32,000 bases of DNA. Source: Patescibacteria group bacterium. Lineage in GTDB: Bacteria > Patescibacteriota > Patescibacteriia > UBA2591 > UBA6264. The notes beneath the pieces are model-generated. The model did not search any database. It was not told the DNA's origin and saw only the letters and a list, made by a program, of their open reading frames with translations. The stretch spans positions 1 through 32,000 of the forward strand of contig JAQTOB010000004.1 in NCBI GenBank assembly GCA_028713575.1, given 5' to 3'. Made by a program: the position numbers and the translations under genes. This document shows positions 5,801-8,115 of the stretch, piece by piece; the first letter of the stretch is position 1; every line of letters starts with the position of its first letter.

Positions 5801-8115
5801 CGGCGGCCGATCTTTGCGACGAGGTTGAAAATTGTACGGGGTCGTCCGCCAGTTGTCCAAGTGACGCTTTAAAGCCCACTGGCACTGTCTGCCGCGCGGC
5901 GGCCGGACCCTGCGATGTGGCTGAAACTTGTATTGCCGGCGCGCCCTATTGTCCACAAGATGTCAAATTAAGCGGCAAACAATCCTGCAGCACCTGTCAG
6001 TATTGCAACGGTTCTTCCGCCACTTGCCAGTATATGGCTTCAGGATCCGATACTTACGGCGATTGCGGCACCACCGGATGTTATACCGGTAATTGTGACG
6101 GTGCCGGAGCCTGCGCTTATTATCTTTCCGGCCAGCGCAATTGCGCAACATGCCAACAATGCAATGCCAGCGGGACCTGCGTCAATATCACTTCCGGTAC
6201 CGATCCTTACGGCGATTGCGGGACTTGTAAAATTTGTTCCGGTGGCGCTTGTATTAATGTAGCAATTGGGGAAGACCCCAAGAATGATTGTCCTTTTGAT
6301 GATTGCAAAACCGGTCTTTGTAGCGGTTCGGGTTATTGCGCTTATTATACTTCCGGCGAGCAGGAATGCCCTGAATGTCAAGCGTGTAGTAGTAGTGGTG
6401 TATGCGTTAATGCAGAGACGCTGGCCTGTCCTCAAGACAGGATGTATTGTTCAGACACTAACAATCGTCTTTGCGGAGCAAAAGAACCGGGAGAAGTTTG
6501 CTGTGTCCTCAAGAGCTGGGGTTGTTTTACCGCCGACACCATGATTAAGACTACATGGGGAGGTGATAAAAAAATAAATAAAATTAGAGTCGGCGACCTG
6601 GTCCAGGGATATGATACTGAAAAAAAACAAATAAAAGAAGTCGAGGTAAATAATGTTTTTAAACATGAAAAGCAAAATTATTATTCAATTGAATTTAAGG
6701 ACAAAAGCGCTTTGAGAGTGACTAAAGACCATCCTTTATACACGGAAAATGGTTATTTAAAAGTGGAAAATTTGAAAGTAGGAGATAAAATTGGAAGAAT
6801 AAATGGTGATAAACTGGAATTTGTGGAAATAACCAAAATAAAAAAGAGTTTATTTAAAAAATCCGTTTATAACCTGGAGGTTGACGAATACCACAATTAT
6901 TTCGCTAACGGATTTCTAGCACACAACAAAGAAAACGCTTGCGATAAAGCGCCGGACAATGCAGGGATAAAAAAGAACTATCCTTGTGGCACATGTAAAC
7001 TTTGCTATGATGGAAGTTGTGTCAATATTGCCGCAGGAAAAGATTTAAACAACGAGTGTCTAGCTGAAGGATGTTTGACCGGTCTTTGTAGCGGTTCGGG
7101 TTATTGCGCTTATTATACTTCTGGCCAGCAAGCTTGTTATTACGGTATGGTCTGTGACAGTTCGGGAAAGTGCGTTGTAGATCCTAACACAAATACCCTT
7201 GGAGCGGTTCAGGGAGAGACAAGGTTAATAGTAAATAATAAAAATATTTCTTTTAAAGAGGCGGCCATCTTAACCTCCAAGATTGGAACCTGTTTAAATT
7301 ATCCACGTCAGACGTGCCAATCAAATGAGGATTGCCAAATTACTGACTTTGAATGTTTGCCTATGTTAAGATGTTCAAATAATCTTACTGTTACATGTGA
7401 TGATGATTCCGATTGTATAAGCGGAGAAAGCGTTTGTGAGGGAGCAAACGTCCCTGCGATTTATGGGAGTCAAAATGAGAGCGTAATCATCGAGGCAGAT
7501 ATTACATTAAAGCCTGATGCTTATTTAATATTTGGCGATCAGCTTTTGTTTAATGGCGGAAAAATCATTTTGGACGGGGGAGCAATATTAAGGGCAGGAA
7601 GCATGATTCAATCAGGAGGAGGTCAGGGTAGAAGGGCCTGCGCGTGCGTATACTCTTCACTTGAGAATGAGAATTATTCTTTTAGATCATCGGGCATACT
7701 CACTCTTAGTAGTGGACAAGGACTGTGTGATGATAGTATTGTTTGCGAAGAAGGGACCGAGTTATTGGACAATTCATCAATTGATGAGCAGTGGGTTTTT
7801 AAAAGTGAAACAAAGAAGGTAGATTGGGACGGGATTCCTTTTGATTGGGTTGAAGGTGTTCGTTATAAAAAATTTTCTAAATATGATAAATACAGTAATA
7901 ATGATTGTCCCTCCGACTGTGATAAATTTTATTGGCGACCCAAAGAGGATCCGGAATCTGGTGAAATTATCTGGTATTATTATATGTGTTGTTCCGGTAT
8001 AGGCCCCTATGGCCTCTCAGGATGTGGTGGTGGCGAGGCCGTGGACAGGTGTTGGTATGATCCATATTTGCCTCAACTCGCTCCTACAACAATGCCGTTT
8101 TACGGGTGGCAATAA
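2872..8115 (+). CDS. Giant secreted cysteine-rich repeat protein with disintegrin-like modules and an embedded Hint (bacterial intein-like) domain
   Basis: 1747-aa uninterrupted ORF. Signal-peptide-like N-terminus (ILLGLFVFAVFLLLKPAYA|YQ). Extremely Cys/Gly/Ser/Thr-rich with tandem modules. Asp-rich DxDGDG motifs (DADGDGDLD, DDDGDGYKD). Confidence 0.9.
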   Translation: MKKNNSLNRSVRENKILLGLFVFAVFLLLKPAYAYQIQVTNYSPWICNTVCSANNATCVDVYDTAEGWLGMPELCSYASQGLTYCGCNCKSGYVPLGSTCVCECTSGACCDGCHYKTSGTVCGYSAYKGCRGICEKYRDIYKCTGTSATCPTTDQGDSFTYVAGGKVCSSGNEIDPTTSIYCDTKDTCSDGSCSGTVYFTSCAGDGLSCDEGQYSSSWPSLTVYASSGYTLTDTCGTTGTSYCNGTDNCSGNTRYTGYKCNGSGSCSVPAGDIGCCDNTKCASGYYCNLLTYTCTPCDCTSGACCDGCGIKAAGTVCGYSAYNGCHASNACMKKRDIYKCTGSSATCPTTDQGDDYTPVSADGKICSAGSEVAPSSGLYCTYTNSCTDGACSGTRYWQGCLGGDGDPALCSSTGQTSSTIYASSGYSLTSSCGTTGTSYCSGTDNCSGNTRYTGYKCNSSGSCNVSSGDIGCCDDSKCSAGWFCEDYVSGSTSSPNYIACPSTEYPDLTEPHCIQQGSKYTCEPSYDIFRGNIVFGGLTNGYNSKTVGMGAPLGDNYPNDWWCHGHSGQGDFGVKTFYNQGDTDLCVGYVYDPCWNGGNVLYQNASGVRGDLGDADRTENNYSGCSWHNMWISLSSYLGGSNGYMSISFEGNGDYCSRNIYFGYKKSETGSVTDGINSTWCCDQSTDCVDDAPAMGGGNSDIAGIGSGCYNTNTTHDADGDGDLDVCSSGSWIDCTSDSHCKNHFKCAAPTCYSSCSSNSQCVSGYYCSGSACIPILPNGLACNENSDCASGNCRKEIDSSNYFCAAAGKACSEGVSGHEGYSAGSLGSYGNPSWLCSATDTSYQCNAANKCKTYNSRYCDGVNTWNSGTGAGISVTGCNAYSCGSSVLVVRDACNGLGACAPGFVLVTTCGGGENSSCVAGQSTCQNLCSNSVDDDGDGYKDAQDSDCGGCSQCTSGACCNTSTGCYYSSSTVCRTAADLCDEVENCTGSSASCPSDALKPTGTVCRAAAGPCDVAETCIAGAPYCPQDVKLSGKQSCSTCQYCNGSSATCQYMASGSDTYGDCGTTGCYTGNCDGAGACAYYLSGQRNCATCQQCNASGTCVNITSGTDPYGDCGTCKICSGGACINVAIGEDPKNDCPFDDCKTGLCSGSGYCAYYTSGEQECPECQACSSSGVCVNAETLACPQDRMYCSDTNNRLCGAKEPGEVCCVLKSWGCFTADTMIKTTWGGDKKINKIRVGDLVQGYDTEKKQIKEVEVNNVFKHEKQNYYSIEFKDKSALRVTKDHPLYTENGYLKVENLKVGDKIGRINGDKLEFVEITKIKKSLFKKSVYNLEVDEYHNYFANGFLAHNKENACDKAPDNAGIKKNYPCGTCKLCYDGSCVNIAAGKDLNNECLAEGCLTGLCSGSGYCAYYTSGQQACYYGMVCDSSGKCVVDPNTNTLGAVQGETRLIVNNKNISFKEAAILTSKIGTCLNYPRQTCQSNEDCQITDFECLPMLRCSNNLTVTCDDDSDCISGESVCEGANVPAIYGSQNESVIIEADITLKPDAYLIFGDQLLFNGGKIILDGGAILRAGSMIQSGGGQGRRACACVYSSLENENYSFRSSGILTLSSGQGLCDDSIVCEEGTELLDNSSIDEQWVFKSETKKVDWDGIPFDWVEGVRYKKFSKYDKYSNNDCPSDCDKFYWRPKEDPESGEIIWYYYMCCSGIGPYGLSGCGGGEAVDRCWYDPYLPQLAPTTMPFYGWQ
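3181..4330 (+). repeat. Two tandem ~195-codon coding repeats inside the giant gene (unit starts at 3181 and 3766, period 585 nt)
   Basis: C(E/D)CTSGACCDGC...GTVCGYSAY...RDIYKCTG(T/S)SATCPTTDQGD...YASSGY(T/S)LT..CGTTGTSYC.GTDNCSGNTRYTGYKCN.SGSC....GDIGCCD..KC occurs twice. The DNA copies differ mostly at third codon positions. Confidence 0.85.
5725..5961 (+). other. Disintegrin-like cysteine-rich module
   Basis: CSQCTSGACCNTSTGCYYSSSTVCRTAADLCDEVENCTGSSASCPSDALKPTGTVCRAAAGPCDVAETCIAGAPYCPQD matches the disintegrin spacing CR-x5-CD-x2-E-x-C-x-G-x-S-x2-CP-x-D. The second half repeats it. Confidence 0.5.
6310..6353 (+). repeat. 44-bp exact direct repeat, copy 1, upstream of the Hint domain
   Basis: ACCGGTCTTTGTAGCGGTTCGGGTTATTGCGCTTATTATACTTC is identical to 7078..7121. 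It encodes TGLCSGSGYCAYYTS. Confidence 0.9.
6523..6927 (+). other. Hint domain (mini-intein-sized, 135 aa) of the bacterial intein-like type
   Basis: Block A CFTADTMI, block B VTKDHPLYT (TxxH), terminal blocks VYNLEVDEYHNYFANGFLAHN. The residue after HN is Lys (AAA 6928..6930), not Cys/Ser/Thr. Confidence 0.8.
7078..7121 (+). repeat. 44-bp exact direct repeat, copy 2, downstream of the Hint domain
   Basis: Identical to 6310..6353. The offset is 768 nt, which equals 256 codons and is in frame. Confidence 0.9.

What the first reader, a model, noticed from the sequence alone, without database searches (positions are those of the whole stretch)
6523..6927. Intein-like Hint domain without a +1 nucleophile inside a secreted cysteine-rich protein
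A 135-aa segment has every mini-intein hallmark: Cys1 in CFTADTMI, TxxH in VTKDHP, and the terminal VYNLEVDEYHNYFANGFLAHN. The residue after His-Asn is Lys (KENAC...), so canonical protein splicing is not possible. This is the definition of A-type bacterial intein-like (BIL) domains, which occur in variable secreted proteins and can auto-cleave or splice atypically. The segment is compositionally foreign. Hand counts give 17/60 G+C for 6601..6660 inside it and 34/60 for 6061..6120 in the flank. Its K/E/N-rich protein composition contrasts with the C/G/S/T-rich host. In polymorphic-toxin-type proteins, Hint domains release the C-terminal module, and here a ~395-aa distinct C-terminal region follows.
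Basis: partly seen in the sequence, partly recalled or inferred. Interest (0 to 1): 0.7.

Follow-up and report, generated by a model that had tools for sequence, protein, structure and literature searches.

The report
Self-cutting Hint domain followed by lysine
A 135-residue self-processing "Hint" domain of the bacterial intein-like type sits inside a giant secreted cysteine-rich protein of an uncultured Patescibacteria-like bacterium; it is a real, inherited and conserved part of that protein rather than a foreign insert or a toxin-release device, and it belongs to a little-noticed branch of the family in which the residue right after the domain is nearly always lysine.

Summary
Window 6523-6927 encodes a 135-aa Hint domain with Cys1, TKDH, His-Asn and Lys at +1. 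It matches Pfam PT-HINT at 3.9e-16. Its best solved relatives are bacterial intein-like (BIL) domains.

The A-type BIL call is supported. Two other claims are not.
- **Foreign composition:** the Hint has GC 0.316 and GC3 0.304, like the other genes in the window. The cysteine/glycine-rich host segments are the outliers, through codon position 2.
- **Toxin release:** the C-terminal region matches no toxin family, no same-strand downstream gene exists, and the C-terminal module is homologous among orthologues.

Seven independent loci carry the Hint at the same site, five of them showing shared gene order. All have an AAA Lys at +1 and a Cys at +5, which excludes a base error or a chimera. The Hint is the best-conserved part of the protein (54-71% identity; dN/dS 0.155).

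Among 318 domains in the 150 nearest cluster representatives, 71% have Lys at +1. Six classical pretoxin Hints have Y, A, S, T, A and S.

Most likely mechanism: a thioester forms at Gly1217-Cys1218, Asn1352 cyclises, and the domain cuts itself out after export. The flanks are then cleaved or rejoined through an amine.

Verdict: a new member of a known kind, with one untested twist, the conserved Lys at +1.

The parts
2872..8115 (+). Gene for a 1747-aa secreted, cysteine-rich giant protein that hosts the Hint domain
   Evidence: Single uninterrupted ORF. The only Pfam hits are the Hint families and a weak Disintegrin match. The orthologue P0006 passes the Disintegrin cutoff. Orthologous genes were found in L036, L037/38, L045/46, L048 and L049, and a more distant homologue in L047.
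2872..2973 (+). Predicted Sec signal peptide (MKKNNSLNRSVRENKILLGLFVFAVFLLLKPAYA, cut before YQ)
   Evidence: Read from the sequence: a basic n-region, a hydrophobic core and an AYA motif. This is inference; no predictor was run.
5986..6411 (+). Three copies of a Cys-rich unit (CxxCxxC...GxDxxxDC...CxTGxCxGxGxCAYYxSG) upstream of the Hint
   Evidence: Motif listing; translation.
6412..6522 (+). N-side flank conserved together with the Hint (AETLACPQDRMYCSDTNNRLCGAKEPGEVCCVLKSWG), five Cys, Gly at -1
   Evidence: Alignment of orthologues: YCxD...LCG.K..GEVC is conserved. Gly is the commonest -1 residue in the clade, 161 of 318.
6523..6927 (+). Hint domain, 135 aa, of the type A bacterial intein-like / PT-HINT kind, with no homing endonuclease
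   Evidence: It is the most conserved segment among orthologues. dN/dS is 0.155 against L037.
6523..6525 (+). Cys1, predicted nucleophile for the N-S acyl shift; the only Cys in the domain
   Evidence: Cys is present in 313 of 318 related domains.
6721..6732 (+). Block B Thr-Lys-Asp-His (TxxH)
   Evidence: In relatives, Thr is present in 304 of 318 domains and His in 310 of 318.
6865..6927 (+). Blocks F and G (VYNLEVDEYHNYFANGFLAHN), ending in His-Asn at 6922-6927
   Evidence: HN is present in 300 of 318 relatives. NCBIfam intein_Cterm scores 34 bits against a cutoff of 15.6.
6928..6930 (+). +1 residue Lys (AAA), conserved
   Evidence: AAA at this position in all seven loci. Lys in 225 of 318 related domains, and in 57% where no second Hint follows.
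6928..6984 (+). C-side flank KENACDKAPDNAGIKKNYP with a conserved Cys at +5 (6940-6942)
   Evidence: K...C at +1 and +5 in every orthologue: KENAC, KAGIC, KLDAC, KETAC, KEYIC, KADVC.
6985..7182 (+). Fourth copy of the Cys-rich unit, downstream of the Hint
   Evidence: It is conserved in P0005, P0151 and P0006.
7183..8115 (+). C-terminal module of about 310 aa with unknown fold, including a short beta-helix-like stretch (LLFNGGKIILDGGAILRAGS)
   Evidence: Homologous in orthologues at 33-37% identity. No Pfam hit at E<=10. The only PDB hit is CcmN at E 0.019. The AlphaFold model has pLDDT 31.8 and is unusable.
8185..9615 (-). Convergent neighbour gene encoding a 476-aa protein with a T9SS-type C-terminal sorting domain; context, not part of the mechanism
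   Evidence: It holds the same position in L036, L037, L045/46 and L048.
137..2838 (+). Two upstream same-strand genes (a >=623-aa repeat protein and a 186-aa membrane-anchored protein); context
   Evidence: Counterparts lie upstream of the orthologues in L045/46 and L048.

Best explanation
Residues 1218-1352 form an active, vertically inherited autoprocessing Hint domain of the type A bacterial intein-like (BIL) / PT-HINT kind. It is built into a giant Sec-exported, cysteine-rich, probably adhesin-like surface protein of a Patescibacteria-type bacterium.

Proposed steps:
1. After export and folding, Cys1218 attacks the Gly1217 carbonyl (N-S acyl shift, helped by the block B Thr/His), which gives a thioester.
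2. Asn1352, helped by His1351, cyclises and cuts the Asn1352-Lys1353 bond.
3. With no Cys/Ser/Thr at +1, the canonical branched ester cannot form. The thioester is therefore resolved by water, giving a roughly 1180-aa N fragment and a 395-aa C fragment. Alternatively an amine of the freed or neighbouring Lys1353 resolves it and rejoins the flanks, as proposed for type A BILs.

The conserved Lys at +1, and the conserved Cys residues on both sides, suggest that the flanks stay connected after the domain leaves.

Shown here: domain identity, intact catalytic residues, conservation, purifying selection and inheritance. Inferred: activity, which products dominate, and the roles of Lys+1 and the flanking Cys residues.
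For: Domain identity: Pfam PT-HINT 3.9e-16, Intein_splicing 3e-13, Hint 7e-10. NCBIfam intein N- and C-terminal models both pass their cutoffs. The best PDB relatives are Tetrahymena BIL2 (6tmm/6y75) at 7e-11 and Clostridium BIL (2lwy) at 9.5e-10, ahead of true inteins at 8e-8 or weaker.

Catalytic set: Cys1, TKDH and HN are all present. The same residues are at least 94% conserved in 318 related domains.

Definition and mechanism of type A BILs: PMC4031507; PMC7664689.

Inheritance: the same insertion site is seen in the orthologous giant genes of L036, L037/38, L045/46, L048 and L049 and in the more distant homologue L047. Gene order is shared in the window, L036, L037, L045/46 and L048.

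Selection: the Hint is 54-71% identical among orthologues, against 33-66% for the N flank and 33-37% for the C module. dN/dS is 0.155.

Lys+1: AAA in all loci, with synonymous differences in neighbouring codons.

Composition: native.
Against: No experiment shows processing. Some Hint domains with intact motifs are inactive or need a +1 change to splice; the Magnetospirillum BIL is an example (PMC4031507). The Hint structure model was poor (pLDDT 46.8), so active-site geometry could not be checked. Whether cleavage or ligation dominates cannot be decided from sequence. The extracellular, Cys-rich setting could trap Cys1 in a disulfide.
Confidence: 0.72

Rival explanations
1. Pretoxin-type Hint. 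The domain cuts at its C terminus to release the 395-aa C-terminal region as a toxin or effector of a polymorphic toxin system.
For: The best Pfam family is PT-HINT. Annotated plasmid relatives at 25-35% identity are 'polymorphic toxin-type HINT' and RHS proteins.
Against: The tail has no toxin or any other Pfam family at E<=10 and no PDB relative. Its first 85 aa are another Cys-rich unit of the host. The tail is homologous among orthologues instead of being swapped. The downstream gene is convergent and conserved in that position, so there is no candidate immunity gene. Five annotated classical examples have a tail of 64-190 aa, and four of them are followed by a small same-strand gene. Across all six examples fetched, including an unannotated Neisseria locus, the +1 residues are Y, A, S, T, A and S, not K. 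The homologue in L047 stops 20 aa after the Hint.
Confidence: 0.08
2. Amine-capture variant. The thioester made by Cys1 is resolved by a lysine side chain. That lysine would be the conserved Lys+1, giving an isopeptide-linked 'spliced' product. Alternatively an amine on another molecule such as the host cell surface would resolve it, giving Hedgehog-like or ubiquitin-like transfer of the N fragment.
For: Lys at +1 is kept in all seven loci and in 71% of 318 related domains, and positions +2 to +6 are not conserved. The closest solved relative, Tetrahymena BIL2, forms an isopeptide bond through a Lys epsilon-amine (PMC8616854). Gly is the commonest -1 residue, as in ubiquitin-like and Hedgehog substrates. 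L047 keeps HN-K...C although only 20 aa follow.
Against: This is purely comparative. Lys+1 could instead tune Asn cyclisation or solubility, or provide only its alpha-amine as in the published type A BIL mechanism. No structure or chemistry was tested. In BIL2 the nucleophilic Lys is reported to lie in the ubl5 ubiquitin-like domain that flanks BIL2; its position relative to the junction is not given in the text read.
Confidence: 0.15
3. A decaying selfish mini-intein that lost its +1 nucleophile and is now an inert insert.
For: The domain is of mini-intein size and has all intein blocks. AT-rich DNA sits between GC-richer flanks.
Against: There is no homing endonuclease. The host is not a conserved housekeeping protein. 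The domain is the best-conserved part of the protein and is under purifying selection. Catalytic residues are intact in orthologues down to 54% identity. Lys+1 is a clade-wide feature rather than a recent mutation. The composition is native. No Hint-less orthologue was found.
Confidence: 0.04
4. A sequencing or assembly artefact: a base error at the +1 codon, or a chimeric join.
For: None beyond the local drop in GC.
Against: A 99.6%-identical strain (L048) and six more divergent loci from separate assemblies (NCBI, JGI and ENA samples) have the same junctions and AAA at +1. Neighbouring codons differ synonymously, for example AAC/AAT and TGC/TGT.
Confidence: 0.01

Closest known systems
Type A bacterial intein-like (BIL) domains (Amitai et al. 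2003; Dassa et al. 2004; CthBIL4 structure 2LWY)
   Same: Size of 130-155 aa, N-terminal Cys, block B TxxH, C-terminal His-Asn, no Cys/Ser/Thr at +1, no endonuclease, and location in a secreted, non-conserved bacterial protein. 2LWY matches at 9.5e-10.
   Different: The host here is a conserved, syntenic giant protein within its lineage, and the domain is its best-conserved part. Lys at +1 is a clade-wide feature. I could not find whether the original type A set shares it.
Tetrahymena thermophila BUBL BIL2 (PDB 6TMM, 6Y75)
   Same: It is the best solved sequence relative (7e-11). Its thioester chemistry is resolved by a lysine amine, giving an isopeptide bond (PMC8616854).
   Different: It is eukaryotic and cytosolic and is flanked by ubiquitin-like domains. 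The nucleophilic Lys is reported in the flanking ubl5 domain, and the text read does not give its position relative to the junction. The window protein has no ubiquitin-like domain.
Pretoxin HINT (Pfam PF07591) of polymorphic toxin systems (Rhs, MafB, CdiA-like proteins)
   Same: It is the best Pfam profile match (60 bits). The host is extracellular and there is no endonuclease.
   Different: The window has no short variable toxin tail and no downstream immunity gene. The sampled classical members have Y, A, S, T, A and S at +1.
Hedgehog/Hog C-terminal autoprocessing domains
   Same: A Gly-Cys-Phe junction, with the thioester formed on a large secreted N-terminal cargo. In the homologue L047 the Hint is almost C-terminal.
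   Different: Hog domains lack the C-terminal His-Asn chemistry and carry a sterol-recognition region. Neither is true here.
Class 1 mini-inteins
   Same: The fold family and all four splicing blocks.
   Different: There is no +1 nucleophile, the host is not a conserved enzyme at a conserved site, and there is no sign of mobility.

Membership tests
Hint superfamily | Significant match to Hint/intein sequence profiles over the whole domain | tested here: met
   PT-HINT 60 bits, Intein_splicing 50 bits, Hint 39 bits and Hint_2 36 bits, all above their Pfam cutoffs for the 166-aa segment.
Hint superfamily | Horseshoe-like Hint fold | tested here: inconclusive
   The AlphaFold model built from a 3-sequence alignment had pLDDT 46.8. 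It is too poor for a fold search.
Type A BIL domain | N-terminal Cys (or Ser) able to form a (thio)ester | tested here: met
   Cys at 6523-6525.
Type A BIL domain | C-terminal His-Asn as in intein block G | tested here: met
   HN at 6922-6927. intein_Cterm scores 34 bits against a cutoff of 15.6.
Type A BIL domain | No Cys/Ser/Thr nucleophile at +1 | tested here: met
   Lys (AAA) at 6928-6930, and the same in seven loci.
Type A BIL domain | Closer in sequence to known BILs than to inteins | tested here: met
   PDB ranking: BIL2 7e-11 and CthBIL4 9.5e-10, against a best intein of 7.8e-8. The margin is modest and no tree was built.
Type A BIL domain | Autocatalytic cleavage and/or splicing in vitro | not testable with these tools
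   Needs expression and mass spectrometry.
Type B BIL domain | Lacks the intein-like C-terminal His-Asn motif | tested here: not met
   His-Asn is present, so this is not type B.
Canonical (class 1) intein | Cys/Ser/Thr at +1 for transesterification | tested here: not met
   Lys at +1.
Canonical (class 1) intein | Inserted at a conserved site of a conserved host protein, with intein-less alleles | tested here: not met
   The host is an orphan giant protein, with only two homologues of the tail in 5.8 billion clusters. No Hint-less orthologue was found.
Polymorphic toxin with pretoxin HINT | Match to the PT-HINT profile | tested here: met
   PF07591 at 3.9e-16.
Polymorphic toxin with pretoxin HINT | Recognisable or variable toxin domain directly after the Hint | tested here: not met
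   No Pfam hit at E<=10. The tail is homologous among orthologues.
Polymorphic toxin with pretoxin HINT | Immunity gene immediately downstream on the same strand | tested here: not met
   The next gene is convergent (8185..9615, minus strand) and conserved there. Classical examples on plasmids show the expected same-strand small gene.
Hedgehog/Hog autoprocessing domain | Hint at the C terminus followed by a sterol-recognition region, with no Asn cyclisation | tested here: not met
   His-Asn is present and 395 aa of unrelated sequence follow.

The most novel reading that the evidence does not exclude
The window domain may represent a large, undescribed 'His-Asn-Lys' branch of the Hint superfamily in which the conserved +1 lysine replaces the Cys/Ser/Thr nucleophile of inteins. 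In that case the thioester at the N junction would be captured by an amine. The domain would then excise itself while joining its flanks through an amide or isopeptide bond, or it would hand the N-terminal cargo to a lysine elsewhere. In this Patescibacteria surface protein that chemistry would mature a giant adhesin-like molecule or link it covalently. In the related head-to-tail arrays (Hint-K-Gly(n)-Hint, 3-12 copies) it would drive serial reactions of unknown purpose.
Probability: 0.2. Interest if true: 0.8.

Novelty: new member of a known kind. Interest (0 to 1): 0.42.

Why it matters
By itself this adds one more type A BIL/PT-HINT domain to a known family, in a phylum (Patescibacteria) whose giant surface proteins are almost entirely uncharacterised. 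Two points go further. First, the domain is an inherited, strongly conserved part of a syntenic surface-protein locus and not part of a toxin cassette. Self-processing therefore seems integral to how this giant protein matures. Second, the lysine right after the domain is conserved across hundreds of related domains but absent from the classical pretoxin Hints sampled. Since the closest solved relative makes an isopeptide bond through a lysine, this points to a simple experiment: mass spectrometry of a roughly 300-aa construct and a K-to-A mutant. That experiment could reveal a natural, nucleophile-free protein ligation or isopeptide-forming chemistry, which would be useful for protein engineering.

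Tried and rejected
1. Word-indexed homologue searches with the Hint segment and with the 395-aa tail found nothing. Only the exhaustive HMMER search and a profile of three tails found relatives.
2. An exact look-up of the 1747-aa protein found no record.
3. A genome-collection scan with the C-terminal half found no relative.
4. Both structure predictions, of the tail and of the Hint with flanks, gave unusable models (pLDDT 31.8 and 46.8).
5. 'Foreign DNA' was rejected on codon-position GC.
6. A search for orthologues lacking the Hint turned up none. The sample is small, so absence is weak evidence.
7. The possibility that short gene calls in L036-L038 meant a Hint-first protein was rejected. 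The reading frames are open to the contig ends and encode the same Cys-rich repeats.
8. The idea that the reverse transcriptase at 22330-23568 forms a diversity-generating retroelement with the Laminin_G gene was not supported. No template/variable repeat pair was found, and the RT is of the group II intron type.
9. Literature searches for the Lys+1 clade, for Hint domains in Patescibacteria and for tandem Hint arrays found nothing specific in the held library. The original BIL papers (Amitai 2003; Dassa 2004) are not held, so I could not check their +1 residues.

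
Full report
**1. What is at the coordinates**

Window 6523-6927 on the + strand translates without stops to 135 aa, beginning CFTADTMIK and ending FANGFLAHN. The segment lies in frame inside one ORF, 2872..8115, of 1747 aa. The landmarks are as follows:
- Cys1 at 6523-6525
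- Thr-Lys-Asp-His at 6721-6732
- His-Asn at 6922-6927
- Lys (AAA) at 6928-6930

Profile searches leave no doubt that this is a Hint domain.
- Pfam gives PT-HINT 3.9e-16, Intein_splicing 3e-13, Hint 7e-10 and Hint_2 1.3e-8. All are above the curated cutoffs for the 166-aa segment.
- The NCBIfam intein N- and C-terminal models pass their cutoffs.
- Among solved structures, the best matches are two bacterial-intein-like domains: Tetrahymena BIL2 (6tmm/6y75) at 7e-11 and the Clostridium BIL domain 2lwy at 9.5e-10. True inteins follow at 8e-8 or weaker.

The domain has no endonuclease insert.

**2. The composition claim**

| Region | GC | Other measure |
|---|---|---|
| Hint | 0.316 | GC3 0.304 |
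| Twelve ordinary genes of the window | 0.29-0.35 | GC3 0.23-0.34 |
| Whole window | 0.365 | - |
| N-terminal 1217 codons of the host | 0.472 | GC2 0.588, GC3 0.406 |

The host's high GC2 follows from its amino-acid content, 11.5% Cys, 13.1% Gly and 12.7% Ser. The Hint therefore has the native composition and the Cys-rich repeats are the outliers. The same dip occurs in the orthologous loci L037 and L036.

**3. Organism and host protein**

An NAD-dependent DNA ligase at 28728-30764 is 45-53% identical to ligases of many MAGs labelled Patescibacteria, Saccharibacteria, Moranbacteria, Falkowbacteria, Uhrbacteria and the like. It is 71% identical to one MAG whose label (Gammaproteobacteria) does not agree with the other top hits. 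The window therefore most likely comes from a Patescibacteria (CPR) genome.

The host protein has these features:
- an N-terminal signal-peptide-like segment, read by eye
- long Cys-rich repeats, including disintegrin-like units. The match is weak here and above cutoff in the orthologue P0006.
- three copies of a CxxCxxC...CAYYxSG unit just before the Hint, and a fourth copy just after it

The Hint thus interrupts a repeat array. It does not sit on the border of a distinct module. The last roughly 310 aa have no Pfam match at E<=10. They have only a marginal PDB match, to the beta-helical protein CcmN.

**4. Relatives**

Word-indexed searches found nothing. An exhaustive HMMER scan of 1.84 billion representatives found 14,163 proteins at E<=1e-3. 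Four of the best hits are homologues of the whole giant protein:

| Protein | Identity over the 166-aa query | Length |
|---|---|---|
| P0001 | 98% | 1214 aa |
| P0005 | 69% | fragment |
| P0006 | 56% | 2221 aa |
| P0014 | 53% | 1510 aa |

A profile of the tails added P0151, and a metagenome scan added L049.

Their loci were fetched.
- The short gene calls in L036-L038 come from contig ends. The frames are open to the first base and encode the same Cys-rich repeats.
- L045/46 and L048 show the same upstream pair of genes as the window. L036, L037, L045/46 and L048 also show the same convergent downstream gene with a T9SS-type sorting domain. L045 additionally shares the cupredoxin and Laminin_G_3 genes.
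- L048 is 99.6% identical to window 1471-9656.

In every one of these loci the Hint sits at the same place. Cys1, TxxH and HN are intact, the +1 codon is AAA Lys and there is a Cys at +5. Neighbouring codons differ synonymously, for example AAC/AAT and TGC/TGT. This excludes a base error or an assembly chimera.

**5. Selection**

Across orthologues the Hint is the best-conserved part of the protein:

| Segment | Identity to the window |
|---|---|
| Hint | 54-71% |
| 200 aa upstream | 33-66% |
| First 85 aa downstream | 44-55% |
| C-terminal module | 33-37% |

Between the window and L037 the Hint has dN 0.183 and dS 1.18, so dN/dS is 0.155. An inert relic would not behave this way.

**6. The toxin-release reading**

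Six classical relatives were taken from plasmids: Leptospira, Streptomyces, Sinomonas, Paenibacillus, Nostoc and Neisseria. The first five are annotated as polymorphic toxin-type HINT, RHS or TIGR04388 proteins. In those five the tail after the Hint is 64-190 aa, and four of them are followed by a small same-strand gene. The Neisseria locus has no annotation. The +1 residues of all six are Y, A, S, T, A and S.

The window differs on every count.
- Its tail is 395 aa and begins with a host repeat.
- The tail is homologous among orthologues.
- No toxin family matches it.
- The downstream gene is convergent.

In the more distant homologue P0014 (L047) the gene ends with a real stop 20 aa after His-Asn (KEYICNPGEGIITICVGLVQ*), and the next gene is unrelated. 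Releasing a C-terminal module cannot be the conserved purpose there. Even so, His-Asn, Lys+1 and Cys+5 are all kept.

**7. The lysine**

I mapped 318 full-length domains in the 150 best representatives:

| Feature | Count out of 318 |
|---|---|
| Cys at position 1 | 313 |
| His-Asn at the end | 300 |
| Lys at +1 | 225 (71%) |
| Cys, Ser or Thr at +1 | 33 |

Lys is not merely part of a linker.
- Where no second Hint follows within 12 aa, Lys still holds 57% of +1 positions (109 of 190).
- Positions +2 to +6 are poorly conserved, with entropy of 3.4-3.8 bits against 2.5 bits at +1.
- The +1 column is among the roughly 20 most conserved columns of the family.

Of the 140 non-orthologous proteins, 115 carry two or more full Hints, typically head to tail and joined by K-G(1-5) linkers. 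Some of these have a signal peptide, a transmembrane segment and a Tim44-like domain.

The literature held here defines type A BILs by His-Asn without a +1 nucleophile. The proposed mechanism has three parts: a thioester forms at the N junction, Asn cyclises, and the freed amino group of the C flank attacks the thioester. Cleavage products dominate (PMC4031507; PMC7664689).

The closest solved relative, BIL2, is reported to form an isopeptide bond through a lysine epsilon-amine (PMC8616854). A conserved Lys at +1 therefore invites the hypothesis that it supplies the amine. This is inference only.

**8. Flanking cysteines (inference)**

The Hint contains a single Cys, the catalytic one. The conserved N flank has five Cys and the C flank has one in the window, L037 and P0006. 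L036 has three and one, having lost two N-flank Cys. The even totals are compatible with a disulfide linking the two flanks across the insertion. Such a bond would hold the fragments together after excision. P0014 does not fit this count neatly. The idea is untested.

**9. Mechanism and verdict**

The best-supported account is a functional type A BIL/PT-HINT autoprocessing domain that matures a giant exported protein. A thioester forms at Gly1217-Cys1218 and Asn1352 cyclises. The flanks are then either separated or rejoined through an amine.

The family assignment, conservation, inheritance and native composition are shown. Activity, the product spectrum and the roles of Lys+1 and Cys+5 are inferred.

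It files as a new member of a known kind. The Lys+1 clade and the tandem arrays are the parts that could prove new. I could not check the original BIL papers for their +1 residues, and the literature searches found nothing specific.

**10. Limits**

- Both structure predictions failed for lack of a deep permitted alignment.
- No phylogeny was built.
- Only the top 150 of 14,163 hits could be inspected, so the extent of the Lys+1 clade is unknown.
- Only six classical PT-HINT domains were sampled.

Noticed in passing
Proteins P0002-P0004, P0007, P0008, P0011 and others; loci L052 2976-6170 and L053 856-4254: Of the 140 nearest non-orthologous relatives of the window Hint, 115 carry 2 or more full Hint domains, typically head to tail and joined by His-Asn-Lys-Gly(1-5)-Cys linkers. 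Among those inspected, several start right after a signal peptide and P0002 and P0003 end in a transmembrane segment plus a Tim44-like domain. A small DUF350 gene precedes them in both loci examined. I found no description of such arrays in the held literature.
   Followed up: partly
window 8185-9615 (-): A 476-aa protein with a T9SS type A C-terminal sorting domain (TIGR04183, 32.7 bits against a cutoff of 23) sits in a genome that otherwise looks like Patescibacteria, which I expect (from general knowledge) to lack an outer membrane and T9SS. It is a conserved convergent neighbour of the Hint gene in four other loci.
   Followed up: partly
window 22330-23568 (-) and 23914-27699 (+): A 412-aa reverse transcriptase lies next to a 1261-aa protein with four Laminin_G_3 domains. 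The RT resembles group II intron maturases (146 bits, below the cutoff of 300). No Rfam intron RNA and no template/variable repeat pair was found, so neither a diversity-generating retroelement nor an intact intron is supported.
   Followed up: partly
window 6207-6253: Against the 99.6%-identical strain (L048), 21 of the 34 differences cluster in this 47-nt patch inside one Cys-rich repeat unit, changing GDCGTCKICSGGACI to TNCGLCEYCDGGACV. This looks like gene conversion between repeat units. Six further differences fall inside the Hint (6814-6864), away from the catalytic residues.
   Followed up: partly
window 137-2008 (+): An upstream ORF, open at the window start, encodes a Gly/Thr/Ser-rich repeat protein with recurring 'GNVGIGTTSPxxKLDVNG' motifs and no Pfam or NCBIfam match. 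A counterpart lies upstream of the orthologous giant gene in L045 and L048.
   Followed up: no
window 27963-28661 (+): An IS200-like Y1 transposase gene lies directly upstream of the NAD-dependent DNA ligase gene (28728-30764).
   Followed up: no
window 12037-12696 (+) and 18591-19169 (+): Two cupredoxin-like small proteins are present in the window. One of them is also conserved next to the orthologous locus L045.
   Followed up: no
L047 5001-9533: In the more distant homologue P0014, the Hint lies 20 aa from a genuine stop codon, in a Hedgehog-like position, yet it keeps His-Asn, Lys+1 and Cys+5.
   Followed up: partly
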